64,000 nt of DNA from Escherichia phage vB_EcoM_DE17: sequence record OP595146.1; one strand, 5' to 3'. The notes under the pieces were generated by a model. The model ran no database searches. It was not told the DNA's origin and was given only the letters and a program-made list of their open reading frames with translations. The position numbers and the translations under genes were made by a program. Shown here in pieces: positions 23,923 through 64,000 of the stretch. Positions within the stretch are counted from its first letter, which is position 1. Each line of letters starts with the position of its first letter.

Positions 23923-23983
23923 TCTATCTCCCTTAATTACTAAAAAGCCCCCAGCTAAGGAGGCTTGTAAGTTTTATAAAGAC

Positions 23984-24796: not shown

Positions 24797-24797
24797 A

Positions 24798-25220
24798 TTA
24801 TTTCTCTCTCAGTTGGTTAAGTTTCTTTCTAGAACATTTTAAGTTTTCGGATGAAGAAAAGTCAAGTGTCTTTTCAGAACGTGGATAGTAATGTCTATCC
24901 CAAGAAGTTTCAACATCATTAATCAGTGACGCTAGATTACACAGGTCTGTACCACTTTGCAACCTCTTTTTAAGAGAATCTAGTAAAGCAACTGTGTCTT
25001 TAGCTTTACGTCTAGCTGTAGCAACATCTTTCATATGCTCAAATACAGAGCATTTTAAGTCATCTTCATAGTTTTCAGACAACTCTATTTCATGTTGTAT
25101 ATCAACCATTCTCCTGTGATGGTGAGCATATTCCCGTTGAGCAGCAATGTCAAGTTCTTCCAACTTCTGCAAAGCTCTAACAAAGTCAGCTATGTCTGGG
25201 TGAACAAACATTTTCTGCAT
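24798..25220 (-). CDS. hypothetical protein
   Basis: 140-aa ORF; first gene of the leftward unit next to the divergent AT-rich region. Confidence 0.5.
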   Translation of the reverse strand: MQKMFVHPDIADFVRALQKLEELDIAAQREYAHHHRRMVDIQHEIELSENYEDDLKCSVFEHMKDVATARRKAKDTVALLDSLKKRLQSGTDLCNLASLINDVETSWDRHYYPRSEKTLDFSSSENLKCSRKKLNQLREK

Positions 25221-25477
25221 GTAAGCCTCTTTTAAGTAACTATTAAGTTTTAATCTTTTATCTTAACGTATTCTATACGTTATACTTTAAAGCTTTTTAA
25301 AAGCTATTAAATAATCTTTTAAGAGTTTTAAAGTATCTGTATAGTTAAACTGTTAAGTAACCTTTTAAGTAAAAACCCACTTCGCAAAGATTAACACCTT
25401 GTCAAGTACATTGTCAACTTGCTTTTTATAATTTTTTGCAGTAATGTATGAGGTTAATGATTTTAGAGGGAGTAAAA
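25221..25477. promoter_or_regulatory. AT-rich divergent intergenic region between leftward early unit and rightward DNA polymerase unit
   Basis: About 255 bp non-coding; tandem cttgtcaa/attgtcaa boxes at 25399..25418; TATAAT at about 25424. Confidence 0.45.
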
Positions 25478-28177: not shown

Positions 28178-28238
28178 TTAGTATTGACAAGGTGCTCACG
28201 GAAGAGTACCTTATACTGTATCTTGTATAGGAGGTCAT

Positions 28239-28457
28239 ATGACACTTTCAGAGATTGAAGTTCAGTTGCAATGTGCTGGTTACTCTCAAAAAGAGATTGA
28301 AGGGATGTTTATCGTTCTTTGCAGTAGCTGTAGGAATTTGAAGGTAAACCCTGAAGTTCTACGTAGAGTCGATATCTTTATTGCTGGAGGCAAAATCGCA
28401 AAAGACAAGACAGGCTACTTAAAAGGTGAGCGTGTAAACATTGAGAGCTTATTATGA
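28239..28457 (+). CDS. hypothetical protein (paralogue of 28660..28872)
   Basis: 72 aa; C-terminus IFIAGGKIAKDKTGYLKGERVNIESL is near-identical to the neighbouring paralogue. Confidence 0.5.
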   Translation: MTLSEIEVQLQCAGYSQKEIEGMFIVLCSSCRNLKVNPEVLRRVDIFIAGGKIAKDKTGYLKGERVNIESLL

Positions 28458-28663
28458 GCCACCGTGGAAGAACCCATGCAGCGATGATGAAAGGTGCTTC
28501 AAAGGAGACTATCAAGAATCGTAAGCAGAAGTTGTTTGAGAGAATGAACAGGTTAATTGACAATTCATCTCTTTCAGGTTCTGAGAAAGTTTTCTTGAAA
28601 GGTAATCTGAAAAGCATTGCACAAGAACTTATTGACATTGAATATTGGAGACACCAAAAATGA
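28454..28663 (+). CDS. hypothetical basic protein
   Basis: 69-aa ORF between the two paralogues. Confidence 0.45.
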   Translation: MSHRGRTHAAMMKGASKETIKNRKQKLFERMNRLIDNSSLSGSEKVFLKGNLKSIAQELIDIEYWRHQK

Positions 28664-28872
28664 CACTTGCAGATGTTATCCAGCAACTTCACGACAATTG
28701 CTATACTCCAGAGTTGATTCAGGAAATGCTTATTGTAGTGATGCCTAGCAAGTTCGTAAAAGGTTTTAATCGTGACTCCTTAATGTCTGCGCATATCATT
28801 ATCGTTGACGGTAAGATTGCAAGGGACCGTACAGGAGTCCTTAAGGGTGAACGTATTAGTATTGACCTCTGA
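28660..28872 (+). CDS. hypothetical protein (paralogue of 28239..28457)
   Basis: C-terminus IIIVDGKIARDRTGVLKGERISIDL; start at ATG 28660 after GGAGA. Confidence 0.5.
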   Translation: MTLADVIQQLHDNCYTPELIQEMLIVVMPSKFVKGFNRDSLMSAHIIIVDGKIARDRTGVLKGERISIDL

Positions 28873-28891
28873 GTATTGGGGGGACATCAAA

Positions 28892-29047
28892 ATGAAACGC
28901 AAAGTAAAATTATTTAGTTTATATGGAAGAGTCGGTAAAGGTTTTGATTGGCAACTGCTACGTTCAGATGTTAAAAGCAATGAATTAGCACAGCTTATTA
29001 TAAACTATCGACGAACGTACAGAGAGGTAGAACATCGTGAACAGTAG
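28892..29047 (+). CDS. hypothetical small protein
   Basis: 51 aa from ATG 28892 (MKRKVKLFSLYGRVGKGFDWQ) with G-rich RBS. Confidence 0.35.
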   Translation: MKRKVKLFSLYGRVGKGFDWQLLRSDVKSNELAQLIINYRRTYREVEHREQ

Positions 29048-29060
29048 TAGGAGAAGTATT

Positions 29061-29297
29061 ATGTGGAAAGCAGTAATTGTGTTTGGTGTTATCTTTCTGT
29101 CTGGCTGTAACCCATCTTACGAGGACAAAAACGCTTCTTATAGCCTCCCACCAGAGATGCAAGATTGCAAAGTCTATAAGTTAAATGGGGATGCAATAAG
29201 CACAGATATTGTTGTTGTCAGATGTCCAAACTCTCAAACGACAACATCTTATAGATATGGTAAAAATAGCCAATCACACACTACGGTTATTGAGTGA
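29061..29297 (+). CDS. small lipoprotein
   Basis: MWKAVIVFGVIFLSGC: hydrophobic signal plus lipobox LSGC; AGGAGA RBS upstream. Confidence 0.5.
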   Translation: MWKAVIVFGVIFLSGCNPSYEDKNASYSLPPEMQDCKVYKLNGDAISTDIVVVRCPNSQTTTSYRYGKNSQSHTTVIE

Positions 29298-29307
29298 GGT
29301 TTTTACG

Positions 29308-29514
29308 ATGCAGGTCTTAATAAACTATATCTACTGTTATGATGTTGTTCACTCCACTACAACGGTAGCTCAACGTAACCCAATCGTCCCACGAGAGGGT
29401 GAGTTGGTTAGAATCGAGGGTTGGACTTACACTGTGGAAAGCATCATTCATAAGTTTGATGTTGCTGGTGATGTTCAAGTTATTGACGTAGAGATTGGTG
29501 GTAAGAGAAAATGA
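29308..29514 (+). CDS. hypothetical protein
   Basis: 68 aa from ATG 29308. Confidence 0.4.
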   Translation: MQVLINYIYCYDVVHSTTTVAQRNPIVPREGELVRIEGWTYTVESIIHKFDVAGDVQVIDVEIGGKRK

Positions 29515-29714
29515 CTGTAGAAGATAAATTTAAGAACGCAGTTCTTACAGAAGATGGTGAGCTTGAAACATTCATTCTTCGTGTTGATGGTAAGCTATTC
29601 CGGTGTCGTTGTGGGTCAAACTGTTTTCACAAACCTGATAACACAAAGTTAGACATATACGAGTGTAATAACTGTGGGGTAAGGTTCTTAGGTAAGATTA
29701 AGGATATGCAATGA
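29511..29714 (+). CDS. zinc-ribbon protein (paralogue of 30039..30230)
   Basis: FRCRCGSNCFHKPD...YECNNCG Cys4 pattern shared with paralogue. Confidence 0.5.
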   Translation: MTVEDKFKNAVLTEDGELETFILRVDGKLFRCRCGSNCFHKPDNTKLDIYECNNCGVRFLGKIKDMQ

Positions 29715-29977
29715 AGATAACTCAAGAAATGAAGGGATTGTATGAGAAAAGTCTGGTAATCCCTCCAAAGACTAATACTAAGAAATTACTATTTGACTCT
29801 TGGTTAGATAGCTCTACATATGGGAAGTACTACCTAAAGGTTATTTCATTTGGTGAAAGACCAGAATCACCAGAATTTTATGAGAGCTACATAAATGAGC
29901 AAGATAAAAAATGTTTATGTTTCTACGAAAAACACATGGAATTAGTAAATTCAATTAATCACGAAAGAGAGCTTTGA
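29711..29977 (+). CDS. hypothetical protein
   Basis: 88-aa ORF. Confidence 0.45.
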   Translation: MKITQEMKGLYEKSLVIPPKTNTKKLLFDSWLDSSTYGKYYLKVISFGERPESPEFYESYINEQDKKCLCFYEKHMELVNSINHEREL

Positions 29978-30038
29978 TGGTTGTGCTTGGCACTACTTCT
30001 ACTCAAAAGGTTGCATAGCTTGTGAGGCAAGAGATAAA

Positions 30039-30230
30039 ATGAACAAAGAAGATAAACATAAAAATGCTGTACGAACTCCTGATGGAAAGGTTCAATCCTT
30101 CATCCTTACAGTTGGTGGAAAGCCATTTCGTTGCCACTGCGGAGCAAACTGTTTTCATAAACCAGATAAAAATGACTTAGAGCTTTACGCATGTAATGCT
30201 TGCAATACTTGGTATCACTCAGAGGAATAA
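30039..30230 (+). CDS. zinc-ribbon protein (paralogue of 29511..29714)
   Basis: FRCHCGANCFHKPD...YACNACN; same N-terminal KHKNAV pattern. Confidence 0.5.
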   Translation: MNKEDKHKNAVRTPDGKVQSFILTVGGKPFRCHCGANCFHKPDKNDLELYACNACNTWYHSEE

Positions 30231-30231
30231 A

Positions 30232-31335
30232 ATGACAATTCTGTACAAACAAAATAAAGATAACTCTTTTAACGTCTGGTCATGCGTTGCTGTAGGTGAC
30301 AAAGTTATTACAACCTACGGTAAAGAAAATGGCAAGATGATGTTTGAAGAGTATACAGCAGAACCTAAAAACATCGGTAAAAAGAACGAGCGTAACGCTG
30401 AACAGCAAGCTCTCTTTGAAGTCGCTGCTAAGTATAAAAAGCAAGTTGACCGCAAAGGTTATGCTTACACAAAAGAATCTGCACAGAATACTGAGAAGGT
30501 AGGTGTGCAGCTTGCTCATGATGCTGCAAAGGTTAGTCATGCAAAGTATCTGAAGTTCCCTGCTGATGCTCAACCGAAACTTGATGGTGTCCGTTGTAGG
30601 ATTTCAAGGCACTTAAGTATTGGCAGTGTATTCACAGCATACTCTCGTGAAAATACTGTTTACAAAATCCCTACTGAACTAATACCTGATATTATGGCAA
30701 TGTTAAGGCTCCACAAAGATGTTGATGAATTTGATGGAGAGATTTATGCTCATGGGTGGGACTTAGAAGATATTGTCTCTATGATTAAAAATGAAGACAA
30801 TCCTGACCGTCATCTACTTAAGTTTTACTGGTATGATATCTGTGACAGTACTAAGACGTGGCCTGAGCGTAGAGATATTATTGAGACTTCACCATTGAAT
30901 GACTTTAGAGACGGCTGTAAAGTTGTTCCTGTTAAGTCTCGTCGTGTAAATTCTTGGGAAGAGTTTGATGAAGCTCATGATAAGTGGGTTGAAGCTAAGT
31001 TTGAAGGTGCAATGTACCGTTCAATCTCTGAAGACTCCTTCTATGAGTGCTGTCACCGTTCATACTTCTTGATTAAGCACAAGAAGATGCACACTGAAGA
31101 GTTTAAAGTGACTGGTGTAAAGACTGATAAGCGTGGTCATGGCAAGTTCGTTGTAGAGACTCTTCCTAACGTCTTTGTAGATGTCTCATGGAAGACTACT
31201 CATGAGAAGAAACAGTATCTTGCTGAGCATCCTGAAGAGTTTATTGGGAAGCCTTTAACGGTTCAGTTCCAGAAGATGACTCGTAAGGGTTCTTTACAGT
31301 TCCCTGTTGGGCTAGTTATCAGGGATTACGAATAA
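30232..31335 (+). CDS. ATP-dependent DNA ligase
   Basis: Adenylation motif I KLDGVR; size typical of small phage ligases; start at ATG 30232. Confidence 0.75.
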   Translation: MTILYKQNKDNSFNVWSCVAVGDKVITTYGKENGKMMFEEYTAEPKNIGKKNERNAEQQALFEVAAKYKKQVDRKGYAYTKESAQNTEKVGVQLAHDAAKVSHAKYLKFPADAQPKLDGVRCRISRHLSIGSVFTAYSRENTVYKIPTELIPDIMAMLRLHKDVDEFDGEIYAHGWDLEDIVSMIKNEDNPDRHLLKFYWYDICDSTKTWPERRDIIETSPLNDFRDGCKVVPVKSRRVNSWEEFDEAHDKWVEAKFEGAMYRSISEDSFYECCHRSYFLIKHKKMHTEEFKVTGVKTDKRGHGKFVVETLPNVFVDVSWKTTHEKKQYLAEHPEEFIGKPLTVQFQKMTRKGSLQFPVGLVIRDYE

Positions 31336-58916: not shown

Positions 58917-59078
58917 AAGGAGAAACCACAATGTACGTCAGAGACATACTGTATAAGGCTTCTTATAAAGTATAACTCTGTAAAAAAGCCCTGTCTAAAA
59001 ATACTCTTCGGTAGCGAAAGGAAGAATACTTATAGCAGGGCATTATTATTATTTTAATTGAGAGAGAGTAAAATAACT

Positions 59079-59153
59079 TGGAGAATCCGAAGGGACTCGA
59101 ACCCTTATAAACCTGTTTTGCAGACAGGCACATATCCATTTCTGTCACGGATT
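59079..59153 (-). tRNA. tRNA-Cys (anticodon GCA)
   Basis: Hand-folded: acceptor gaatccg/cggattc, T-arm AAGGG-TTCGAGT-CCCTT, loop CTGCAAA, CCA encoded. Confidence 0.7.
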
Positions 59154-59157
59154 CAAA

Positions 59158-59250
59158 TTGGAGGAAGATACCAGACTTGAACTGGTACACCGATTTCTCA
59201 GCTACTGGCAGTTTAGCAAACTGCTCCCTTACCTTTTAGGGTTAATCTTC
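59158..59250 (-). tRNA. tRNA-Ser (anticodon GCT), class II
   Basis: 93 nt; anticodon stem GCAGT/ACTGC, loop TTGCTAA, long variable arm, T-arm ACCAG-TTCAAGT-CTGGT. Confidence 0.65.
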
Positions 59251-59252
59251 CA

Positions 59253-59987
59253 TTATTTCTGTAATGCGTTCTTCATTTCTGGTGTTGCAATAGTGTCAAT
59301 TACACCAGTTTTACAAGCATCATCAAACCAGTCTGGTAAGATACCTGCTAAGAACCCATTGATATTCGTTTTAAGGTACTCTGCAATAAGGGCAGCTTCT
59401 TCTTCAATCATCTGCACAACTTCATCTGCATAAGCTGTAATCTTTGAGATACCTTCATTAATCTTACTAACAGCTTGGTTAGCTAAATCAGAAATAGTAT
59501 CAAGACCTTTATCAATAGCATCCTGTAAGTCACTTAATACATCATTAACACCGTCTAGTGCACTGTTAATCGTATCCATAGCTTTTTGACCATACTCTGT
59601 AGCAACACCCATAATACCACTAAATGGTGTACAGCCAACTTGTTCACCTGCTGCACCCATAACATTAGAATAGCCTTTTGCTACCTGCATACGTGAGGAA
59701 AACTCATCAATGGACTTTTGACCATAATCTGTCAGTGTCTTAGTAGTTGATGTAGTGCTTGTCAGACTCGTTGTAAAGCTGTTAAGCAGAACTGTTGTAA
59801 GTCCAGCAGCAACAAGTTTATCTTTTATTGTAGGGTCTGTTACAGAGCTAATAGAGCTTACAAGTGATGTAGAGGCAGCTACGGTTCCACCGAGAACTGC
59901 TGCACCAGTAATAAGGGGATTAGAAAACCCTCTACCGGTTTTTAAGAGATTAAAAATCTCCTTACCTTGTTCTGTCATCTCTTTCAT
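59253..59987 (-). CDS. hypothetical Ser/Thr-rich protein embedded in tRNA cluster
   Basis: About 244 aa; start set to ATG at 59987 (MKEMTEQ) so it does not overlap the tRNA at 60004..60080; ends 3 nt before tRNA-Ser. Confidence 0.45.
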   Translation of the reverse strand: MKEMTEQGKEIFNLLKTGRGFSNPLITGAAVLGGTVAASTSLVSSISSVTDPTIKDKLVAAGLTTVLLNSFTTSLTSTTSTTKTLTDYGQKSIDEFSSRMQVAKGYSNVMGAAGEQVGCTPFSGIMGVATEYGQKAMDTINSALDGVNDVLSDLQDAIDKGLDTISDLANQAVSKINEGISKITAYADEVVQMIEEEAALIAEYLKTNINGFLAGILPDWFDDACKTGVIDTIATPEMKNALQK

Positions 59988-60003
59988 TAAGCACCTTTGG
60001 AAT

Positions 60004-60080
60004 TGGTAGTCCAGTGGGATTTGAACCCTCTTCTCATGTTTTTCAGACACGCGCTTTAACCATATAAGCTACTTGGACTA
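60004..60080 (-). tRNA. tRNA-Phe (anticodon GAA)
   Basis: T-loop TTCAAAT, anticodon loop CTGAAAA; one T-stem mismatch in hand fold. Confidence 0.6.
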
Positions 60081-60085
60081 TAAAT

Positions 60086-60161
60086 TGGGGTGACCTACGG
60101 GATTTGAACCCGTATAGACCATGTTCACAGCATGGGTCATTACCATTTATGATAAGGCCAC
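60086..60161 (-). tRNA. tRNA-His (anticodon GTG)
   Basis: Anticodon stem CCATG/CATGG, loop CTGTGAA; T-arm ACGGG-TTCAAAT-CCCGT. Confidence 0.65.
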
Positions 60162-60192
60162 ATTTAAGGACTCTCGTAAGAACCCTTAGAAG

Positions 60193-60268
60193 TGGCAGCG
60201 GCATAAGGATTTGAACCTTAATAAGACAGCTTCAGAGACTGCTGCATTGCCAGTTATGCTATACCGCT
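60193..60268 (-). tRNA. tRNA, probably Gln (anticodon CTG)
   Basis: T-arm TAAGG-TTCAAAT-CCTTA; anticodon loop CTCTGAA on a stem with two G-U pairs. Confidence 0.5.
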
Positions 60269-60273
60269 AAATT

Positions 60274-60352
60274 TGGTACTCCATATCGGATTCGAACCGA
60301 TACATAACACAGATTTTAAGTCTGGCCTCTCTGCCAATTGGAGTAATGGAGC
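60274..60352 (-). tRNA. tRNA, isotype uncertain (loop suggests anticodon TAA)
   Basis: T-arm ATCGG-TTCGAAT-CCGAT, CCA encoded; loop CTTAAAA; short variable arm is atypical for Leu. Confidence 0.5.
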
Positions 60353-60354
60353 AT

Positions 60355-60429
60355 TGGCGGGGGATGTTGGAATTGAACCAACTTCTTCGATTTCAAAGAC
60401 CGAGGTTTTAACCTTGTAAACTAATCCCC
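60355..60429 (-). tRNA. tRNA-Gln (anticodon TTG)
   Basis: T-arm GTTGG-TTCAATT-CCAAC, loop CTTTGAA; 1-72 mismatch in hand fold. Confidence 0.55.
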
Positions 60430-60438
60430 TTTAAATCT

Positions 60439-60996
60439 TTACTTTCTCAGTGGATGAATAAAGAATGCCAACATAACTCTTTCCCTTGAGAATGCTCTTT
60501 CTTCTGGGACAACACTTTTTAGCTTCCATCCAACATAAATTCTCCAGTAGAATTGTTTACCAAAGACTTTAATTGATGGGATAAAAGCGAATAATCCCCA
60601 AGCATTACTGTTCCACATTAGGAGATAACCTGTCTGATTATCTTCAGGGTTAGAACTTACGTTGATATTACCTTTCCACTTAGTAACATCTTTTACATCT
60701 CTTCCTAATACATGGTAAGAGAAGTTATAAGCTTTGTTTCTCCAGAGCCAACCAACTCTCTGCATATAGACACCAAGCTTGCCAATCTTTCTAATCTTAG
60801 CCCATCGTTCGACATGCCCTTTATCACCATCAATTGGGTTGTCATATGTCTCCATCCATCTGAAGCCGAAAGGTAAGTGTCCTTTCTTCTCACTGTAAAA
60901 TGGAACTACAAAAGGTGCTAAGATAACTGCTAAGATTGCTGCAAATGGTTCTAACAAAGCTAAGAAAATCCATGAAGCATACTTCAAATATCTCAT
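60439..60996 (-). CDS. membrane protein embedded in tRNA cluster
   Basis: 185 aa; N-terminal hydrophobic helix ASWIFLALLEPFAAILAVILAPFVV; flanked by tRNAs. Confidence 0.5.
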   Translation of the reverse strand: MRYLKYASWIFLALLEPFAAILAVILAPFVVPFYSEKKGHLPFGFRWMETYDNPIDGDKGHVERWAKIRKIGKLGVYMQRVGWLWRNKAYNFSYHVLGRDVKDVTKWKGNINVSSNPEDNQTGYLLMWNSNAWGLFAFIPSIKVFGKQFYWRIYVGWKLKSVVPEERAFSRERVMLAFFIHPLRK

Positions 60997-61015
60997 CTAA
61001 ATAGCCTCTTTAAAT

Positions 61016-61091
61016 TGGCGCAGGATAAGGGATTCGAACCCCTATTAACAGCTTCGTAGACTGTTGCTCTATCCATTTGAACTAATCCTGC
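61016..61091 (-). tRNA. tRNA-Arg (anticodon ACG)
   Basis: Acceptor gcaggat/atcctgc, T-arm GGGG-TTCGAAT-CCCTT, loop CTACGAA. Confidence 0.7.
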
Positions 61092-61204
61092 TTACCTACA
61101 AGAACACCATACAGTTTTTCACAAGAGTTGTTTTTACGCCTGTTTTTGAATGACGCTATAAACTTTTTTGCAATTGACTTATTACTCATAGTGTTCTCCT
61201 AAAA

Positions 61205-61283
61205 TTGGTGTTCCAAGACGGATTCGAACCGTCACTAGTACAAGGTTTGAGCTTGCATCCTCTGCCAATTGGGATACTGGAAC
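61205..61283 (-). tRNA. tRNA, isotype uncertain (loop suggests anticodon CAA)
   Basis: T-arm GACGG-TTCGAAT-CCGTC; D-stem ATCC/GGAT; loop CTCAAAC; short variable arm. Confidence 0.5.
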
Positions 61284-61284
61284 A

Positions 61285-61359
61285 TGGTACTCACTAAAGG
61301 ACTTGAACCTTTTTCTTCATCTTGTAAGGGTGATGTTTTACCATATAAACTAAGCGAGT
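61285..61359 (-). tRNA. tRNA, possibly Val (anticodon TAC)
   Basis: T-arm AAAGG-TTCAAGT-CCTTT; loop CTTACAA with one stem mismatch. Confidence 0.5.
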
Positions 61360-61455
61360 ATGAAAGAGGTCTGAAGTTGTGCCGCTAACTCAACTCCGTG
61401 GGATTTGTTACGGTCTTCAGTTGACTCAAAGCGGTCTTTCACTTGACCTCTAAAT

Positions 61456-61531
61456 TGGTGCTCCCACAAGGATTCGAACCCTGATAAGTTGCTTACAAGG
61501 CAACCGTAATAGCCAATTATACGATAGGAGC
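61456..61531 (-). tRNA. tRNA-Thr (anticodon TGT)
   Basis: Perfect anticodon stem GTTGC/GCAAC, loop CTTGTAA. Confidence 0.7.
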
Positions 61532-61538
61532 ATTAATT

Positions 61539-61613
61539 TGGAGCATCCAGAGGGAATCGAACCCTCAACATCAGTTTGGAAGACTGTAATTTTCCCGTTT
61601 AAACTATGGATGC
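61539..61613 (-). tRNA. tRNA-Gly (anticodon TCC)
   Basis: T-arm GAGGG-TTCGATT-CCCTC, loop CTTCCAA. Confidence 0.65.
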
Positions 61614-61619
61614 ACTAAT

Positions 61620-61695
61620 TGGTGGAGTCACTGAGAATTGAACTCAGTTCCCAAGTTTGCAAAACTCGAATTTTAACCATATAAACTATGACCCC
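61620..61695 (-). tRNA. tRNA-Ala (anticodon TGC)
   Basis: Acceptor GGGGTCA with G3-U70 pair typical of tRNA-Ala; loop TTTGCAA. Confidence 0.7.
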
Positions 61696-61701
61696 ATTGT
61701 T

Positions 61702-61777
61702 TGGTACAGGTGGAGGGAATTGAACCCATCGTCTTACTGATTAAGAGTCAGCCGCATAACCATTTTGCTACACCTGC
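61702..61777 (-). tRNA. tRNA-Lys (anticodon CTT)
   Basis: Loop CTCTTAA on stem GCTGA/TCAGT; T-loop TTCAATT. Confidence 0.6.
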
Positions 61778-61784
61778 ATTAATT

Positions 61785-61862
61785 TGGTAGGAGACAAGGG
61801 ATTCGAACCCTCAAACACCAACTTCTAAGGATGGTAGGTTTACCAATTACCGTCAATCTCCC
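61785..61862 (-). tRNA. tRNA, isotype uncertain (loop suggests anticodon TAG)
   Basis: T-arm GAGGG-TTCGAAT-CCCTT, CCA encoded; loop CTTAGAA; D-arm fold ambiguous. Confidence 0.5.
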
Positions 61863-62116
61863 ATTAAATCTTTTTAGAGAACTTCTAAGAACCTAAGCAA
61901 CAAGGTTCCACAACAAGCTGTAATAACCTTAGAAGCCCTCTAAAAAGACCTAAATTGGTCTTTGCATAGTCTTGTTTAATCCGGTGACTAGAACCTTTGG
62001 AGAGCTTGATATTATCTCTTCTCCGTGACACCTACTAGGTGCTTTATCAGTGTGTACGACAATACACGAGGGATACCAAAGCAACATCCGAATGAAGCTT
62101 GGCTTTAAATCTTATT

Positions 62117-62207
62117 AGGCGGTAAGTAAAGGAGTCGAACCCTCACCGTATCTCTACAGTGGCAACTGTTTTCAAGACAGTTTGGCTACCATTAGCCGCT
62201 ACCTACC
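62117..62207 (-). tRNA. tRNA-Ser (anticodon TGA), class II
   Basis: 91 nt; perfect anticodon stem ACTGT/ACAGT, loop CTTGAAA, long variable arm; 3' CCA not encoded. Confidence 0.7.
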
Positions 62208-62220
62208 CCTAATAAGACTT

Positions 62221-62303
62221 TGGCATGGGACGGAGGAGTTGAACCCCTTTGAAACGGTTTTGGAGGCCGTTGCTCATGCCTTAGAGTCTTAACATCGTCC
62301 CAC
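62221..62303 (-). tRNA. tRNA-like gene, isotype uncertain (possibly Trp, anticodon CCA)
   Basis: T-loop TTCAACT and paired acceptor ends; 83 nt; internal fold ambiguous; candidate loop CTCCAAA. Confidence 0.45.
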
Positions 62304-62445
62304 ACTATAATTCGAAGCTTACCGTATTTTCGCAACACTGTAAAGCCCCTTCTCAGATTATTTACATGTTCTGGAAAACATGAGATACAGACCACCTCCT
62401 TACACGGAGACCCGATAAGGTCGTCTAAGCAATCTGCTAACTATT

Positions 62446-62522
62446 TGGCACACCCTACAGGATTCGAACCTGTAACTAACGATTTAGAAGACCGTTGCTC
62501 TATCCAATTGAACTAAGGGTGC
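62446..62522 (-). tRNA. tRNA-Arg (anticodon TCT)
   Basis: T-arm ACAGG-TTCGAAT-CCTGT, loop CTTCTAA; D-arm near-identical to tRNA-Arg(ACG). Confidence 0.7.
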
Positions 62523-62814
62523 ATTAATCTTTAAAGACTCTCTTAGAAAGCCCTTAAAGATGCCCACCTTATTAATCATACCGTGGGCGAGTACGCCAAA
62601 TTCTTTGATGAGGGATTGGAAGACCTCACTGGTGTTTAGCCTATCAAGCTACTGCCAGAAAAACATTGTCGTTTGCATTTATTTTAAGTTTGCAAAATAG
62701 ACGCTACGCAACGAAAACTATTCAGAATATGTACAACAAATTTCCCCACATTGTGTTACGTCTAACACTCATGTATTGGTGTTTGAATTATACATATTAT
62801 GAAGTATTTTAGTT

Positions 62815-62843
62815 ACTATAAAGTGGTCACACCTCAATGTCAA
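62815..62843 (-). promoter_or_regulatory. sigma70-like promoter inside tRNA cluster
   Basis: Minus strand TTGACA-N17-TATAGT in an AT-rich spacer between tRNA-Ile and the tRNA-free region 62523..62810. Confidence 0.45.
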
Positions 62844-62858
62844 CAACTTTATTGAAAT

Positions 62859-62934
62859 TGGTACTGGTAGGTGGAATCGAACCACCGATGTTCCCTTATC
62901 AGGGGAGTGTTATAACCTTCTTAACTATACCAGC
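62859..62934 (-). tRNA. tRNA-Ile (anticodon GAT)
   Basis: T-arm GGTGG-TTCGATT-CCACC, loop CTGATAA. Confidence 0.65.
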
Positions 62935-62935
62935 T

Positions 62936-63012
62936 TGGAGGTTCAGATGGGAATCGAACCCACATTCATAGGGCTTATGAAACCCCTGCATTACCTTATC
63001 TGCGACTGAACC
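62936..63012 (-). tRNA. tRNA-Met (anticodon CAT)
   Basis: Loop TTCATAA on stem GGGGT/GCCCT; T-arm GTGGG-TTCGATT-CCCAT. Confidence 0.65.
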
Positions 63013-63016
63013 ATAT

Positions 63017-63092
63017 TGGTAGAAGTGGAGGGATTCGAACCCATCGCCTGTCAGATTAAAAGTCTGCCGCATCACCATTCTGCTACACTTCC
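63017..63092 (-). tRNA. tRNA-Lys (anticodon TTT)
   Basis: Loop CTTTTAA; acceptor and T-arm similar to the tRNA-Lys(CTT) copy. Confidence 0.65.
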
Positions 63093-63236
63093 ATTAAATC
63101 ATCTTTGTAGATAAGCTACCCAGACTTGCTTAAGGTCTGTAGCGATGTGCATTGTTGGGTTTAAATCTAGAATTTACCCTTTCACCCTTTGTGGTCGCAT
63201 ACTCACAGGTAAGCTTAATAGCTCACCTACAAAGAT

Positions 63237-63380
63237 AATTACCAGACCGTTGTTTATCATCTTAAGTGCTACCATTACACCAACTCGACATCTGCCGAGT
63301 GAAGGAATCGAACCTTCGCCTTTTCTTTACCGGAGAAATAGATTGTTTAAGTTTTGCTGTAAACGGTCTTCTGTAAATTT
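63237..63380. repeat. repeat copy 1 (attaccagaccgt ... ttttgctgtaaacggtcttctgtaaattt) carrying a tRNA-like T-arm insert
   Basis: Terminal motifs shared with copy 2; the two ends can pair (agaccgt / acggtct); about 95 nt between them includes gccgagt-GAAGG-aatcgaa-CCTTC with no matching 5' acceptor. Confidence 0.5.
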
Positions 63381-63546
63381 GTTGAGCCAGACCAAGTTTA
63401 AATTTTTCAAAATTAAATTGGCTTGAAATTTTAAGTAACTTGCTGAATTTGGTCTTCTGCTCCTTTAAAGAATACTCGTAAGAACTCTTTAAGGGAGGGG
63501 CTAAATAGCCCTCTCAAAACATCATCTTGAAATACTTATTATAATT

Positions 63547-63624
63547 TGGCGGTTACGAAGGGATTTGAACCCTCATCATCTCCCGTGACAGGGGAGTATT
63601 TTAACCAGATTAAACTACATAACC
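63547..63624 (-). tRNA. tRNA-Asp (anticodon GTC)
   Basis: Perfect anticodon stem CTCCC/GGGAG, loop CTGTCAC; T-arm GAGGG-TTCAAAT-CCCTT. Confidence 0.75.
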
Positions 63625-63630
63625 TTTATT

Positions 63631-63718
63631 TGGTGTGCCGTGTAGGAGTCGAACCTACCGAGTCTCAATGACAAGGGATTTACAGTCCCCACCGCTACCA
63701 TCTACGGGATAACGACAC
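63631..63718 (-). tRNA. tRNA-Tyr (anticodon GTA), class II
   Basis: 88 nt; loop CTGTAAA; long variable arm; T-arm GTAGG-TTCGACT-CCTAC. Confidence 0.7.
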
Positions 63719-63788
63719 ATTTATTATTCTATTCAGGCTAAGGACTTGCACCTTACAAATCGGTGAGCAATCGCTTCTCTCCTAAATT

Positions 63789-63865
63789 TGGCGGTTAGTC
63801 AGGGATTCGAACCCTGTGCCATTCGCTTAACAGGCGACCGCACATACCTTATGTGCTTCCTAACC
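63789..63865 (-). tRNA. tRNA-Asn (anticodon GTT)
   Basis: D-stem GCAC/GTGC, loop CTGTTAA, T-arm CAGGG-TTCGAAT-CCCTG. Confidence 0.65.
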
Positions 63866-63872
63866 ATGTTTA

Positions 63873-63951
63873 GTATTACCAGACCGTATCTTTTCAATTT
63901 TTCCGCTAAAAATTTCATTAAATTTTGCTGTAAACGGTCTTCTGTAAATTT
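63873..63951. repeat. repeat copy 2 (attaccagaccgt ... ttttgctgtaaacggtcttctgtaaattt)
   Basis: Same terminal motifs as copy 1 but only about 36 nt between them; abuts the 3' end of the partial tRNA-Met. Confidence 0.5.
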
Positions 63952-64000
63952 GGAGGCGGGTGCAGGAGTCGAACCTGCCGATACCATGCTAATGAGACAT
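63951..64000 (-). tRNA. tRNA-Met/fMet (anticodon CAT), 5' part beyond window
   Basis: 3' half only: CCA, acceptor ACCCGCC, T-arm GCAGG-TTCGACT-CCTGC, loop CTCATTA. Confidence 0.5.

What the first reader, a model, noticed from the sequence alone, without database searches (positions are those of the whole stretch)
59079..64000. Large tRNA array (about 25 genes) with two embedded protein genes
About 5 kb of minus-strand DNA carries some 25 tRNA genes covering at least Cys, Ser(x2), Phe, His, Gln, Arg(x2), Thr, Gly, Ala, Lys(x2), Ile, Met(x2), Asp, Tyr and Asn. Two protein ORFs sit inside it: a Ser/Thr-rich protein (59253..59987) and a membrane protein (60439..60996), both tightly bounded by tRNAs. 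Genes retained inside a tRNA operon are likely co-expressed with the tRNAs and are uncharacterised here.
Basis: seen in the sequence. Interest (0 to 1): 0.6.

Follow-up and report, generated by a model that had tools for sequence, protein, structure and literature searches.

The report
Felix O1-type phage tRNA cluster
This is the well-known tRNA gene cluster of a Felix O1-like coliphage, with two conserved proteins of unknown function; its apparently empty gaps also hold an unannotated tRNA-Trp-like gene and small structured RNAs that resemble the Y RNA partners of Ro proteins.

Summary
ARAGORN and Rfam find 23 complete minus-strand tRNA genes at 59079..63865, plus a tRNA-Met cut by the window end.

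The window is a Felixounavirus, 96-100% identical to phages ekra, KEP1 and pinkbiff. Its tRNA cluster was described for Felix O1 in 2010, including the internal sigma-70 promoter and the early transcription of both ORFs.

- **ORF1** is Pfam DUF7217. It is conserved across Ounavirinae just upstream of the terminase gene. Its homologue in phage LIMEstone1 is a mass-spectrometry-confirmed virion protein.
- **ORF2** is Pfam DUF7338, a membrane-anchored accessory protein. It is missing from some relatives and shared with T4-like phages. Its confident predicted fold has no solved relative.

Neither protein is tied to tRNA biology.

Three things in the spacers appear to be unannotated:
- an atypical tRNA-Trp-like gene at 62221..62303, supported by five compensatory base-pair changes;
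- several conserved structured RNAs;
- a closed-acceptor tRNA mimic of YrlA (Y RNA) architecture at 63244..63369.

The tRNA mimic is framed by a stem plus a UUACAGCAA motif. The same motif recurs next to a Ro-like gene (DUF2828 + vWA domain) in dozens of unrelated phage contigs.

The parts
59079..59154 (-). tRNA-Cys (GCA), last gene of the array
   Evidence: ARAGORN; Rfam RF00005 56 bits
59159..59251 (-). tRNA-Ser (GCU), long variable arm
   Evidence: ARAGORN; Rfam 46 bits
59253..59987 (-). ORF1, 244 aa, pI about 4.3, Pfam DUF7217 (homologue of Felix O1 ORF49). All-helical and elongated. Probable minor virion protein.
   Evidence: Pfam E 1.8e-90 and PHROG 2114. AF2 model pLDDT 70.7, long helical hairpins. 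LIMEstone1 ORF129 homologue is MS-confirmed in virions. A Felix O1 virion gel band was assigned to gp49.
60004..60079 (-). tRNA-Phe (GAA)
60086..60161 (-). tRNA-His (GUG)
60163..60187 (-). Conserved hairpin UAAGGGUUCUUACGAGAGUCCUUA that fills the Gln-His spacer. Related copies lie at 62530..62554, 63465..63489 and about 61869..61893, each just 5' of a tRNA. Possibly a processing signal.
   Evidence: Repeat families D10 and D11. Conserved in 6 variants with compensated changes.
60193..60268 (-). tRNA-Gln (CUG)
60274..60352 (-). tRNA-Leu (UAA)
60355..60430 (-). tRNA-Gln (UUG)
60439..60996 (-). ORF2, 185 aa, pI about 10, Pfam DUF7338 (homologue of Felix O1 ORF48). N-terminal transmembrane helix plus an alpha/beta domain. 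Accessory gene.
61016..61091 (-). tRNA-Arg (ACG)
61082..61189 (-). 35-codon ORF (MSNKSIAKKF...) with an AGGAG Shine-Dalgarno sequence, overlapping the start of tRNA-Arg by 10 nt. The spacer is variable: absent in some relatives and replaced by another small ORF in Moogle- and Suspviruses.
   Evidence: Sequence; spacer comparison.
61206..61283 (-). tRNA-Leu (CAA)
61285..61359 (-). tRNA-Val (UAC)
61360..61455 (-). Conserved 96-nt structured spacer (GAGGUC...GACCUC hairpin) between Thr and Val
   Evidence: RNAalifold -20 kcal/mol over 12 variants from three genera.
61456..61531 (-). tRNA-Thr (UGU)
61539..61613 (-). tRNA-Gly (UCC)
61620..61695 (-). tRNA-Ala (UGC)
61702..61777 (-). tRNA-Lys (CUU)
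61785..61862 (-). tRNA-Leu (UAG)
61863..62117 (-). Conserved 255-nt spacer with a nearly invariant core, a terminator-like hairpin AAAGACC-AAUUU-GGUCUUUUU (about 61942..61963), and a covarying terminal hairpin
   Evidence: Alignment of 12 variants, RNAalifold -51 kcal/mol.
62118..62207 (-). tRNA-Ser (UGA)
   Evidence: ARAGORN; Rfam clan hit 39 bits
62221..62303 (-). Unannotated atypical tRNA-Trp-like gene. Features: anticodon loop CUCCAAA flanked by C.A; G73 followed by an encoded CCA; 7-8 bp acceptor stem; 9-nt instead of 2-nt connector before the D stem.
   Evidence: Cloverleaf is the minimum-free-energy fold. Five compensatory pair changes, 100% paired, 0/500 shuffles, slid controls 0. Same GGCCUCCAAAACCG arm as the canonical tRNA-Trp of Erwinia phage Coenus. 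Missed by ARAGORN; Rfam only 23 bits.
62446..62522 (-). tRNA-Arg (UCU)
62523..62814 (-). Conserved structured leader between the internal promoter and tRNA-Arg(UCU). This phage and pinkbiff carry an extra insert of about 89 nt with a TGTATAAT extended -10 element.
   Evidence: RNAalifold -47 kcal/mol, 4 pairs with double changes.
62815..62843 (-). Sigma-70 promoter TTGACA-17-TATAGT (11 of 12), identical to P45 of Felix O1
   Evidence: PMC3185647 section 2.5. Conserved in all relatives.
62859..62934 (-). tRNA-Ile (GAU)
62936..63012 (-). tRNA with CAU anticodon (Met or lysidine-Ile; G1-C72, so not an initiator)
   Evidence: sequence
63017..63092 (-). tRNA-Lys (UUU)
63097..63235 (-). Structured RNA of about 140 nt (long terminal helix plus internal hairpins). 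Length is 145 nt in 7 of 9 spacer variants (143 and 146 in the others), including both diverged sequence types.
   Evidence: fold_alignment: 43 pairs, 10 with compensatory double changes.
63244..63369 (-). YrlA-architecture RNA. A 7-bp terminal stem AGACCGU/ACGGUCU is followed by UUACAGCAA. It encloses a V-like hairpin, a T arm (GAAGG-UUCGAUU-CCUUC), an acceptor stem closed by a loop, and a D arm (GUGU-AAUGGUA-GCAC). The core lies at 63264..63319.
   Evidence: Alignments show three covarying variants of the closed stem. Model R1 finds the same module in unrelated phage contigs.
63389..63455 (-). Short hairpin RNA of the same design: AGACCAA + AUUCAGCAA ... UUGGUCU + GG
   Evidence: (D12); weak Rfam Dicty_Class_I_RNA hit of 15 bits.
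63462..63515 (-). GC hairpin GAGGGCUAUUUAGCCCCUC plus a UUCUUACGAG-type hairpin
63547..63624 (-). tRNA-Asp (GUC)
63631..63718 (-). tRNA-Tyr (GUA), long variable arm
   Evidence: ARAGORN; Rfam clan hit 29.6 bits. Called 'pseudo' by tRNAscan in Felix O1.
63789..63865 (-). tRNA-Asn (GUU)
63881..63940 (-). Short 60-nt hairpin RNA: AGACCGU + UUACAGCAA ... ACGGUCU + GGUAAU
   Evidence: 35-nt repeat, 97% identical to 63347..63381 (D14). Covarying outer pairs UUAC/GUAA versus UUGC/GCAA. Motif scan.
63951..64000 (-). 3' part of tRNA-Met (CAU), cut by the window end
   Evidence: Sequence; complete gene in pinkbiff L001 8325..8400.
58982..59041 (-). Intrinsic terminator after tRNA-Cys: long hairpin plus U6
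   Evidence: RNAfold -25.4 kcal/mol, z -4.9, 0/200 shuffles.

Best explanation
**What the region is.** It is the tRNA cluster of a Felixounavirus (Felix O1-like myovirus of E. coli), lying between a Ro-like RNA-binding protein gene just beyond the window end and the terminase gene.

**How it is expressed.** Host sigma-70 RNA polymerase transcribes it early. At least one strong internal promoter is used (62843..62815), and transcription ends at an intrinsic terminator after tRNA-Cys. Host RNases then cut the polycistronic precursors into mature tRNAs (inferred).

**What the tRNAs do.** In the full genome there are 26 canonical tRNAs covering 19 amino acids, plus an atypical tRNA-Trp-like gene. 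They supply an A+T-rich phage with decoders for codons it over-uses relative to its host: AGA, ACA, AAG, UCA, GUA, CUA, CCA and UUA. Because the set is nearly complete, it probably also makes translation less dependent on the host tRNA pool (inferred).

**What the two ORFs are.** They are passengers of different kinds.
- ORF1 (DUF7217) is the first gene of the packaging/structural block. It is most likely a minor, elongated helical virion protein.
- ORF2 (DUF7338) is an early-expressed, horizontally mobile accessory protein anchored in the inner membrane. It most likely acts at the cell envelope, for example in exclusion or host takeover, rather than on tRNAs. Its mechanism is not established.

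**What the spacers hold.** They are not empty. They encode conserved structured RNAs, including a tRNA mimic with a closed acceptor stem and two short hairpin RNAs, all framed by a stem plus UUACAGCAA. These are best read as Y-RNA-like partners of the neighbouring Ro-like protein.
For: **Identity.** The region is 96-100% identical to Felixounavirus genomes and shares their tRNA order.

**tRNAs.**

**Promoter and terminator.**. The same promoter (P45) was reported for Felix O1, where ORFs 45, 46, 48 and 49 were maximal at 5 min.

**Codon match.** Codons with a Watson-Crick phage tRNA have a median phage/E. coli usage ratio of 1.20, against 0.79 for the rest (Mann-Whitney p 0.015). AGA is 8.5x, ACA 3.3x, AAG 3.0x and UCA 2.6x. 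The Felix O1 paper reached a similar conclusion.

**ORF1.** Pfam DUF7217. It is always the last CDS before the small ORFs and TerL in Felixouna-, Moogle-, Susp- and Erwinia phages. It lies in the head/tail cluster of Ackermannviridae. LIMEstone1 ORF129 matches the whole Pfam model and aligns over about 96% of the window protein (28% identity, E 9e-29). It was detected in virions with 2 peptides and 18% coverage. The Felix O1 virion band at 51 kDa was assigned to gp49.

**ORF2.** Pfam DUF7338; a transmembrane helix at residues 2-33 plus a confident alpha/beta domain. Its distribution is patchy, with 55-62% identity to T4-like phages. It occurs between tail-fibre and lysis genes in L025.

**Trp-like gene.**

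**Y-like RNAs.** Covariation is shown. The upstream gene in relatives has DUF2828 plus a vWA domain, is PHROG 'RNA-binding protein', and is homologous to mycobacteriophage 'Ro-like RNA binding protein'. Model R1 finds closed-acceptor modules next to that gene in unrelated contigs. The stem plus UUNCAGCAA element occurs in 36 of 75 loci, and 38 of 57 elements lie within 500 nt of the gene. The Rfam YrlA model hits such elements in L106 at E 5e-5.
Against: - **Expression.** No expression data exist for this phage. The Felix O1 RT-PCR timing is crude: capsid ORF58 is also listed at 5 min.
- **Codon usage.** The E. coli table was written from memory. Several phage tRNAs decode codons that are not enriched (CAG, AGC, UGC, CGU).
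- **ORF1.** The Felix O1 band ran at 51 kDa although gp49 is predicted at about 25.6 kDa. Whole-phage shotgun MS did not list gp49. The VpaE1 homologue is annotated only as hypothetical. LIMEstone1 support is 2 peptides, in a list that also contains 1-peptide contaminants.
- **ORF2.** No experiment or fold match indicates any activity. Some records call it a holin.
- **Y-like RNA.** The window element itself gets no Rfam YrlA hit at E<=10. The YrlA motif GNCGAAN0-1G is absent. The Ro-like gene lies outside the window and showed no sequence-level match to solved Ro60 structures.
Confidence: 0.75

Rival explanations
1. The near-complete tRNA set exists mainly as a counter-defence. It would replace host tRNAs that are cleaved or depleted during infection (anticodon nucleases, retron or PARIS-type effectors, phage-induced host RNA decay), rather than tuning codon usage. 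This is compatible with the main explanation.
For: The set covers 19-20 amino acids and includes tRNAs for codons the phage does not over-use: CAG ratio 0.62, AGC 0.48, UGC 0.67, CGU 0.70. The genus also encodes a PseT-like polynucleotide kinase/phosphatase (VpaE1 ORF04) and a Ro-like protein next to the array, both elements of RNA repair or quality control. From my own knowledge, phage T5 tRNAs are reported to overcome tRNA-targeting defences.
Against: The codon-usage match is statistically detectable and very strong for AGA, ACA, AAG and UCA. No anticodon-loop escape changes were examined here.
Confidence: 0.35
2. ORF2 (DUF7338) is the phage's class III holin: one transmembrane domain, N-in/C-out, with a large periplasmic domain, like T4 gpT.
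For: Several GenBank records label this gene 'holin' (P54, ESCO56 and HP1). The Mushroom announcement reports a class III holin in a Felix O1-like phage without naming the gene. The architecture, an N-terminal transmembrane helix plus a globular domain, fits. In L025/L026 a distant homologue lies directly upstream of a 96-aa ORF, an endolysin and a spanin gene.
Against: The gene is absent from the arrays of Mooglevirus 3HA14 and Erwinia phage Coenus. It is present at 55-62% identity in T4-like phages, which by my own knowledge normally encode their own t holin. Felix O1 ORF48 was maximal at 5 min. There is no Pfam holin match. Invariant polar and Trp residues (T50, D52, R86, N87, Y90 and five Trp) suggest a ligand-binding or catalytic domain.
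Confidence: 0.15
3. ORF1 (DUF7217) is not a virion component but an early intracellular protein, for example a membrane- or nucleoid-associated helical scaffold. On this reading the proteomic identifications are carry-over or mis-assignment.
For: Felix O1 ORF49 was maximal at 5 min. The gene sits upstream of the terminator that separates the array from the late genes. The Felix O1 band mass (51 kDa) does not fit 25.6 kDa, and shotgun MS missed the protein. The VpaE1 homologue is not labelled structural.
Against: There is an independent MS detection in LIMEstone1, where the gene has a late promoter and lies in the head/tail cluster. Its position next to the packaging genes is conserved across the subfamily.
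Confidence: 0.3
4. The conserved spacer structures are only cis-acting signals (RNase processing sites, terminators or attenuators, promoter context) or decayed tRNA remnants. They would not be stable trans-acting Y-like RNAs.
For: Small hairpins sit directly 5' of tRNAs. The spacers contain promoter- and terminator-like elements. Chen et al. warn that tandem tRNAs mimic YrlA, and model R1 did give such false positives in L021 and L107. The window element has no Rfam YrlA hit.
Against: The closed acceptor stem covaries in three variants and cannot arise from two unrelated neighbouring tRNAs. The same module and the same UUNCAGCAA-flanked stem recur next to the Ro-like gene in contigs with no sequence similarity to Felix O1, and often with no tRNA nearby. 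The Rfam YrlA model recognises members in L106.
Confidence: 0.3
5. The tRNA-Trp-like element at 62221..62303 is a non-functional pseudogene.
For: ARAGORN and the Rfam tRNA model do not call it. It has 7 extra nucleotides between the acceptor and D stems, and either a 9-nt anticodon loop or a C.A-closed 7-nt loop. RNAfold z-scores are only -1.0 to -1.5.
Against: Of the 12 differences between the two sequence types, 10 form five compensatory pairs. The loop, the T arm and G73-CCA are invariant across three genera. Trp is the only amino acid otherwise lacking a tRNA in the set. The canonical tRNA-Trp of an Erwinia relative also shows C31.A39.
Confidence: 0.35

Closest known systems
tRNA gene cluster of Salmonella phage Felix O1 and other Felixounavirus genomes (Whichard et al. 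2010, PMC3185647)
   Same: Same genes in the same order, the same internal promoter P45, the same ORF48 and ORF49 homologues, and the same position between ORF42 and the terminase gene.
   Different: Felix O1 has three HNH/EndoVII endonuclease genes inserted in the array, and tRNAscan called 22 tRNAs there. This phage has no endonuclease genes, and it carries tRNA-Arg(UCU), which ARAGORN did not find in Felix O1. tRNA-Ser(UGA), tRNA-Ser(GCU) and the second CAU tRNA are missing only from the 2010 tRNAscan list; ARAGORN finds all three in Felix O1. The spacer RNAs and the Trp-like gene are not annotated in any record inspected.
Ro60 (Rsr) with YrlA-type Y RNAs of bacteria and mycobacteriophages (Chen et al. 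2014, PMC4201824; Rfam RF02553)
   Same: The RNA has the YrlA order of V hairpin, T arm, loop-closed acceptor stem and D arm, held by a stem formed from the 5' and 3' ends. A conserved single-stranded motif follows the 5' strand. The RNA is encoded within 4 kb and on the same strand as a Ro-like protein gene (helical domain plus vWA domain).
   Different: The protein is of the DUF2828/DUF7788 type, not an annotated TROVE protein. It gave no sequence hit to solved Ro60 structures. The motif is UUNCAGCAA instead of GNCGAAN0-1G. The window RNA is not detected by the Rfam YrlA model. The RNAs are embedded in a tRNA array and come with short 55-65 nt versions that lack the tRNA-like module.
Phage T4 tRNA cluster with its two stable small RNAs (species 1 and 2), and the phage T5 tRNA region with interspersed small ORFs (from my own knowledge, not tested here)
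   Same: Early-transcribed polycistronic tRNA clusters of virulent coliphages. They also carry non-tRNA stable RNAs, small ORFs and homing endonuclease insertions.
   Different: There is no sequence relation. T4 has only 8 tRNAs. The Felix-type array is flanked by a Ro-like gene.
Dictyostelium Class I RNAs (Rfam RF01414; Kjellin et al. 2021, PMC7919456)
   Same: Short RNAs of about 60 nt with a stem joining the 5' and 3' ends, followed directly after the 5' strand by CCUUACAGCAA. The phage elements carry UUACAGCAA or UUUCAGCAA and keep the positions reported as nearly invariant (U3, C6, C9, A10 and A11).
   Different: Only two sub-threshold Rfam hits were found: 30.7 bits in L065 and 15 bits in the window, against a gathering score of 41.5. 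Eight further loci gave none. Class I RNAs are reported as unique to dictyostelids and bind an RRM protein. No link to a DUF2828 protein was tested.

Membership tests
Canonical bacterial-type tRNA genes | Cloverleaf with conserved D and T loops, scoring above the Rfam RF00005 gathering score or called by ARAGORN | tested here: met
   ARAGORN genes. Of these, 21 score 40-65 bits against a gathering score of 29. Ser(UGA) and Tyr are kept under the clan's tRNA-Sec model.
Felixounavirus tRNA cluster | Near-identical DNA and the same gene order, between the ORF42 homologue and the terminase gene | tested here: met
   The 5.4-kb query matches 96-98% identical over 98-100% of its length, and a 431-nt sub-region is 100% identical to phage ekra. 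The tRNA order is the same in 18 loci.
Pfam DUF7217 (ORF1) | Full-length match above the gathering score | tested here: met
   E 1.8e-90, 303 bits against a cut-off of 29, residues 8-243 of 244.
Phage virion (structural) protein, for ORF1 | Detected in purified particles | tested here: inconclusive
   Literature on homologues only. LIMEstone1 ORF129: 2 peptides. Felix O1 gp49: a band at twice the expected mass, not seen in shotgun MS. Not testable for this phage.
Pfam DUF7338 (ORF2) | Full-length match above the gathering score | tested here: met
   E 8.1e-62, 208 bits against a cut-off of 27, residues 1-184 of 185.
Class III holin (T4 gpT-like), for ORF2 | Match to a holin family; late expression; present in every member of the lineage that lacks another holin | tested here: not met
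Anti-phage defence or known anti-defence protein, for both ORFs | Match to PADLOC models | tested here: not met
   No hit for ORF2. ORF1 gives only weak coiled-coil hits to ZorA, E about 1e-3.
tRNA-Trp, for 62221..62303 | Anticodon CCA in a CUCCAAA loop; G73; A1-U72 (TrpRS identity elements, from my own knowledge); standard cloverleaf geometry | tested here: inconclusive
   The loop sequence, G73 and an encoded CCA are present. A1-U72 is present in most relatives; the window has G1.U72. Stems are supported by 5 compensatory changes. Geometry is non-standard: a 9-nt connector and a C.A closure of the loop. It is not called by ARAGORN or RF00005. Charging is not testable.
YrlA / Y RNA-like (Rfam RF02553), for 63244..63369 | Order V, T, loop-closed acceptor stem, D, enclosed by a 5'/3' stem | tested here: met
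   Same order as described in PMC4201824.
YrlA / Y RNA-like (Rfam RF02553), for 63244..63369 | Match to the Rfam covariance model | tested here: not met
   No YrlA hit at E<=10 in 63090..63550. Related elements in L106 score 38.9 and 28.7 bits against a gathering score of 69.
YrlA / Y RNA-like (Rfam RF02553), for 63244..63369 | GNCGAAN0-1G motif near the 5' end | tested here: not met
   The sequence has UUACAGCAA at that position instead.
YrlA / Y RNA-like (Rfam RF02553), for 63244..63369 | Encoded within 4 kb and on the same strand as a Ro60 orthologue | tested here: inconclusive
   In relatives the element lies about 1 kb downstream of, and co-oriented with, the DUF2828-vWA gene. That gene's homologues are annotated 'Ro-like RNA binding protein'. 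The gene is outside this window, and its Ro60 homology is not shown by sequence profile.
Ro60 / TROVE protein, for the upstream gene of relatives (outside the window) | TROVE helical toroid plus vWA domain | tested here: inconclusive
   The vWA domain is supported: VWA_2 in 16 of 26 homologues, and vWA_Ro60 in 4 of 26 at E>=0.002. No TROVE Pfam hit and no PDB sequence hit.
Dictyostelium Class I RNA (RF01414), for the short stem-motif hairpins | Covariance-model score above 41.5 bits; 5'-G, stem, 11-nt motif, 3' CUGU | tested here: not met
   Best scores are 30.7 bits (L065) and 15 bits (window). No hits in 8 further loci. Only the stem-plus-motif design is shared.

The most novel reading that the evidence does not exclude
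The tRNA array may host a previously undescribed branch of the Ro/Y-RNA system. The protein component would be a Ro-like protein of the DUF2828-vWA type, present in about 700 sequenced phages. Its RNA partners would be a family of small RNAs defined by a terminal stem followed by UUNCAGCAA.

Some of these RNAs carry a YrlA-like tRNA mimic; others are bare hairpins of about 60 nt. They are typically encoded right beside the protein gene, and often inside or at the head of phage tRNA or tmRNA clusters. The complex would act in quality control, repair or protection of tRNAs during infection.

A more speculative extension (probability about 0.1) is that the identical stem plus UUACAGCAA design of Dictyostelium Class I RNAs reflects common ancestry or a shared protein-binding mode.
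Probability: 0.45. Interest if true: 0.8.

Novelty: new variant of a known kind. Interest (0 to 1): 0.55.

Why it matters
The array as reported is textbook for this genus, so the original finding adds little by itself. What matters is what sits between the tRNAs.

If the spacer RNAs really are partners of the neighbouring Ro-like protein, then Felix O1-like phages carry a compact Ro/Y-RNA module wired into their tRNA supply. These are easy-to-handle model and therapeutic phages of E. coli and Salmonella. They would give a tractable system for asking what bacterial and phage Ro ribonucleoproteins do, a question that is still largely open.

The analysis also flags a likely 27th, non-canonical tRNA (Trp) that standard annotators miss. 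It assigns a probable virion role to a DUF family. It argues against the 'holin' label that is spreading through GenBank for DUF7338.

Tried and rejected
- **PADLOC and NCBIfam.** No meaningful hits for either ORF.
- **Paper search.** A search for DUF7338 or DUF7217 found no papers. The search for DUF2828 or TROVE was swamped by the ordinary word 'trove'.
- **Mushroom genome.** I fetched the wrong region, because the record is in the opposite orientation. I therefore could not verify which gene its authors call the class III holin.
- **VpaE1 virion proteome.** The table is an image and could not be read.
- **L027.** The 245-aa neighbour of a DUF7338 homologue is not a DUF7217 protein.
- **Ro-like protein against PDB.** Single-sequence and profile searches gave no hit to Ro60.
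- **Rfam Dicty Class I model.** No hits on eight loci with short stem-motif hairpins, so membership is rejected and only the design resemblance is kept.
- **Felix O1 'tmRNA'.** The tmRNA mentioned in the Mushroom announcement was not reproduced by ARAGORN on the Felix O1 array region. The weak Rfam tmRNA hits in 62523..62917 are far below threshold.
- **Model R1 false positives.** Hits in L021 and L107 fall at tandem-tRNA junctions and were discarded. The L057 hit does not overlap any ARAGORN tRNA; it is treated as uncertain because it looks like a tRNA 3' end (CCACCA) followed by the 5' part of another tRNA.

Full report
**Identity and observation.** The 5.4 kb around the finding is 96-98% identical over 98-100% of its length to many Felixounavirus genomes (KEP1, KEP3, pinkbiff, CL1). 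A 431-nt sub-region is 100% identical to Escherichia phage ekra. The window is therefore a Felix O1-like myovirus of E. coli.

ARAGORN finds 23 complete tRNA genes on the minus strand between 59079 and 63865. Rfam confirms all of them. The last 50 bases of the window are the 3' part of a tRNA-Met(CAU) cut by the window end. Relatives continue with the complete Met, then Glu and Pro, giving 26 canonical genes.

The isotype list only missed three Leu, one Val and a second Gln.

**This is a known feature.** The Felix O1 genome paper (PMC3185647) lists the same tRNAs. It also lists ORF48 (185 aa, pI 10.1, 'membrane protein') and ORF49 (244 aa, pI 4.3) inside the cluster, and a sigma-70 promoter P45, TTGACA-17-TATAGT, right after tRNA-Ile.

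The same promoter is present here at 62843..62815 with 11 of 12 consensus matches. It is conserved in all relatives. After tRNA-Cys a long hairpin plus U6 (59041..58982; -25.4 kcal/mol, z -4.9) ends the unit before the small ORF and the terminase gene. In Felix O1, ORFs 45, 46, 48 and 49 gave maximal RT-PCR signal at 5 min.

Co-expression with the tRNAs from host-type early promoters is therefore plausible. However, the cluster is not a single operon. Its content is also mosaic: spacer lengths and the presence of individual tRNAs, small ORFs and HNH endonuclease genes vary between relatives.

**What the tRNAs do.** I compared codon usage of 63 long ORFs of the window with an E. coli table written from memory. 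Codons that have a Watson-Crick phage tRNA are enriched in the phage: median ratio 1.20 against 0.79, Mann-Whitney p 0.015.

| Codon | Phage / E. coli ratio |
|---|---|
| AGA | 8.5x |
| ACA | 3.3x |
| AAG | 3.0x |
| UCA | 2.6x |
| GUA, CUA, CCA | about 2x |

They agree with, and extend, the Felix O1 paper, which had noted that a tRNA for AGA would be expected. This phage has that tRNA.

The set also contains decoders for codons that are not enriched, and it covers 19-20 amino acids. Independence from a damaged or depleted host tRNA pool is therefore a likely second benefit. That is an inference and was not tested.

**ORF1 (59253..59987).**
- It is a full-length member of Pfam DUF7217 (E 1.8e-90) and PHROG 2114. 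It has weak similarity to tape-measure segments and to the C-terminal half of PHROG 289.
- Context is more informative. In Felixouna-, Moogle-, Susp- and Erwinia phages it is always the last CDS before one or two tiny ORFs, TerL and the portal gene. In Felixounavirus, two tRNAs (Ser-GCU and Cys) happen to lie downstream of it, which is what makes it look 'embedded'.
- In Ackermannviridae the homologue sits between the major capsid gene and gp3, with no tRNA nearby.
- In LIMEstone1 the homologue, ORF129, matches the whole Pfam model (E 2.6e-93) and aligns over about 96% of the window protein (28% identity, E 9e-29). It has a late promoter and was detected in virions by ESI-MS/MS at 25 kDa, with 2 peptides and 18% coverage.
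- The Felix O1 paper assigned a virion gel band to gp49, though at 51 kDa and not in the shotgun data.

I conclude that ORF1 is most likely a minor virion protein. My confidence is about 0.5-0.6. Its role in the particle is unknown.

**ORF2 (60439..60996).**
- It is a full-length DUF7338 / PHROG 2143 protein.
- Invariant residues include T50, D52, G57, R86, N87 and Y90, and five of the six Trp are invariant with the sixth nearly so. They fall in the motifs ETYDNPIDGD and WLWRNxAY. This points to a binding or catalytic domain rather than a simple pore former.
- The gene is accessory. It is missing from the arrays of Mooglevirus 3HA14 and Erwinia phage Coenus. It is 55-62% identical in T4-like Slopek-, Karam- and related viruses, which implies horizontal transfer. 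It also occurs in jumbo and Pseudomonas phages.
- In KP15 it lies about 0.9 kb downstream of two tRNAs in an early region. In a distant homologue it lies between tail-fibre genes and a lysis cassette.
- The 'holin' label in a few records is not supported by any family match. It conflicts with the early expression, the patchy distribution and the coexistence with T4-type holins.

My best guess is an early, inner-membrane-anchored accessory protein acting on the envelope, for example in superinfection exclusion or host takeover. My confidence is about 0.3.

**The gaps: an unannotated tRNA-Trp-like gene.** Trp is the only amino acid without a called tRNA in the set. The 238-nt gap between tRNA-Arg(UCU) and tRNA-Ser(UGA) contains an 83-nt element at 62221..62303.

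Its minimum-free-energy fold is a cloverleaf. Its features are:
- a 7-8 bp acceptor stem, then G73 and an encoded CCA;
- a D stem-loop with GG, and a T arm;
- a 5-bp anticodon stem closing the loop CCUCCAAAA. This is the E. coli tRNA-Trp loop CUCCAAA flanked by C and A (the E. coli comparison is from memory).

It is odd in having 9 instead of 2 nucleotides between the acceptor and D stems. ARAGORN misses it, and Rfam gives only 23 bits.

Two sequence types exist in relatives. Of their 12 differences, 10 form five compensatory pairs, four in the anticodon stem and one in the D stem. The structure is 100% paired; 0 of 500 shuffles reach the observed value, and slid controls give zero.

The Erwinia relative Coenus has a canonical tRNA-Trp with the same GGCCUCCAAAACCG arm. 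I consider this a selected RNA, probably a non-canonical tRNA-Trp. Charging is untested.

**The gaps: conserved structured RNAs.** I compared spacers from 18 related loci representing three genera. The following are all conserved and structured:
- the Thr-Val spacer;
- the Ser-Leu spacer;
- the promoter leader;
- the 454-nt Asp-Lys spacer.

The Asp-Lys spacer contains an RNA of about 140 nt (63097..63235) with 43 predicted pairs, 10 of them compensated.

Its most interesting part is 63244..63369. There, a 7-bp stem (AGACCGU/ACGGUCU) is followed by UUACAGCAA. The stem encloses a small hairpin, a perfect T arm, an acceptor-like stem closed by a loop, then UG and a D arm.

The closed stem exists in three covarying versions: ACUCG/CGAGU, ACACG/CGUGU and ACCCUUC/GAAGGGU. 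It is therefore not simply the junction of two decayed tRNAs.

This is the architecture described for YrlA-type Y RNAs, the tRNA mimics bound by bacterial Ro60 (PMC4201824). Two shorter hairpins of the same stem-plus-motif design lie at 63389..63455 and 63881..63940.

**The neighbouring Ro-like gene and cross-phage evidence.** In relatives, the gene immediately upstream of the array is Felix O1 ORF42, a 471-aa protein. It lies just outside this window. The evidence on its identity is:
- It has Pfam DUF2828 plus DUF7788 and belongs to PHROG 850, 'RNA-binding protein'.
- Its C-terminal domain is a vWA domain, with weak hits to the Ro60 vWA model.
- It is homologous over its full length (30-34% identity, E 1e-60 to 1e-76) to mycobacteriophage proteins annotated 'Ro-like RNA binding protein'.
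- It occurs in 709 phage records.

I fetched 75 diverse, non-Felix contigs that encode this protein. They gave four results.
- **tRNA neighbourhood.** 23 of them have tRNA genes within 4 kb, all on the gene's strand. In about half of these the tRNAs start just after the gene.
- **Same RNA module.** A covariance model was built only from the Felix T arm, closed stem and D arm core. It finds the same module with different stem sequences in L056 (46.7 bits, E 1e-9), L078 (38.9 bits, 60 nt after the stop codon), L106, L059, L045, L037 and L041. None of these hits overlaps a called tRNA.
- **Same flanking motif.** A stem followed by UU(A/U)C(A/C)GCA occurs on the gene strand in 36 of 75 loci. There are 57 elements on the gene strand, 23 on the opposite strand and 10 in shuffled sequence. 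Of the 57, 38 lie within 500 nt of the gene ends, where about 7 would be expected.
- **Rfam YrlA recognition.** The Rfam YrlA model recognises two such elements in L106 (38.9 bits, E 5e-5). It aligns the T arm, closed stem and D arm, and places CAGCAA where YrlA has GNCGAA.

**Caveats on the Y-RNA reading.**
- The window element itself is not hit by the Rfam YrlA model.
- Ro60 homology of the protein is not shown at the sequence-profile level.
- No expression data exist.
- The stem plus UUACAGCAA design is also that of Dictyostelium Class I RNAs. The Rfam Class I model gives only sub-threshold hits, so I record that as a resemblance only.

**Verdict.** The two 'embedded' genes are conserved DUF proteins that are expressed but not functionally tied to tRNAs. 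One is probably a virion component and the other a mobile membrane accessory protein.

The added value lies in the spacers: a covariation-supported atypical tRNA-Trp-like gene and a set of Y-RNA-like structured RNAs that pair, by position, with a Ro-like protein gene across many phages. I rate the whole as a new variant of a known kind, with moderate interest. The Ro-like RNP reading is the item worth experimental follow-up.

Noticed in passing
window 62221..62303 (-): An unannotated, non-canonical tRNA-Trp-like gene (CCA anticodon, G73-CCA, 9-nt connector before the D stem). Five compensatory base-pair changes separate the two sequence types found in relatives. Trp is the only amino acid otherwise missing from the phage's tRNA set.
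   Followed up: yes
window 63244..63369 (-), core 63264..63319: A tRNA mimic with a loop-closed acceptor stem, in the YrlA / Y-RNA order V-T-AS-D. It is framed by a 7-bp stem followed by UUACAGCAA. The same module is found next to Ro-like (DUF2828-vWA) genes in unrelated phage contigs (L056, L078, L106, L059, L045, L037 and L041).
   Followed up: yes
window 63881..63940 (-) and 63389..63455 (-); loci L035-L109: Short hairpin RNAs of 55-67 nt with a terminal stem plus UU(A/U)CAGCAA. They occur in 36 of 75 diverse phage loci, mostly within 500 nt of the DUF2828-vWA gene. The design is the same as Dictyostelium Class I RNAs, but Rfam RF01414 scores stay below threshold.
   Followed up: partly
L001 8818..10233 (-) (pinkbiff_42; Felix O1 ORF42), just beyond window position 64000: The gene upstream of the array encodes a DUF2828 + vWA protein (PHROG 'RNA-binding protein'). 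It is homologous to mycobacteriophage 'Ro-like RNA binding protein' and is present in 709 phage records. In 23 of 75 diverse contigs, co-oriented tRNA genes lie within 4 kb, starting just after the gene in about half of them. Three contigs (L083, L088 and L107) have a tmRNA gene downstream.
   Followed up: partly
window 63097..63235 (-): A structured RNA of about 140 nt directly upstream of tRNA-Lys(UUU). Its length is 145 nt in 7 of 9 spacer variants (143 and 146 in the others), including both strongly diverged sequence types. It has 43 predicted pairs, 10 with compensatory changes. Function unknown.
   Followed up: partly
window 61360..61455, 61863..62117 and 62523..62814 (-): Three further spacers are conserved across three genera and predicted to be structured. 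The middle one contains a terminator-like hairpin (about 61942..61963) inside the array. The third is the leader of the internal promoter and, in this phage and pinkbiff, carries an extra insert of about 89 nt with a TGTATAAT element.
   Followed up: partly
window 60163..60187, 62530..62554, 63465..63489 and about 61869..61893 (-): A repeated small hairpin containing UUCUUACGAG or UUCUAAGAG lies just 5' of tRNA-His, tRNA-Arg(UCU), the Y-like hairpins and tRNA-Leu(UAG). It may be a processing signal.
   Followed up: no
window 61082..61189 (-): A 35-codon basic ORF with a strong AGGAG ribosome-binding site overlaps the 5' end of tRNA-Arg(ACG). The spacer is absent from some relatives and carries an unrelated small Cys-rich ORF in Moogle- and Suspviruses.
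   Followed up: partly
window 63145..63426 (+) and 62899..63078 (-): Two ORFs of 93 and 59 aa correspond to CDSs annotated as hypothetical proteins in pinkbiff (pinkbiff_41 and pinkbiff_40). They overlap the structured RNAs and tRNA genes and are probably annotation artefacts.
   Followed up: no
L029 (Felix O1 23400..30700), L015 and L020: HNH/EndoVII homing endonuclease genes are inserted at different spacers of the array in some relatives but not in this window. The array appears to be a hot spot for mobile-gene insertion.
   Followed up: no
GenBank record GU169904.1 ('Staphylococcus phage SA1', 147 kb): This record matches the E. coli phage array at 95.6% identity over 97% of the query. It probably contains a Felix O1-like contaminant or chimeric assembly.
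   Followed up: no
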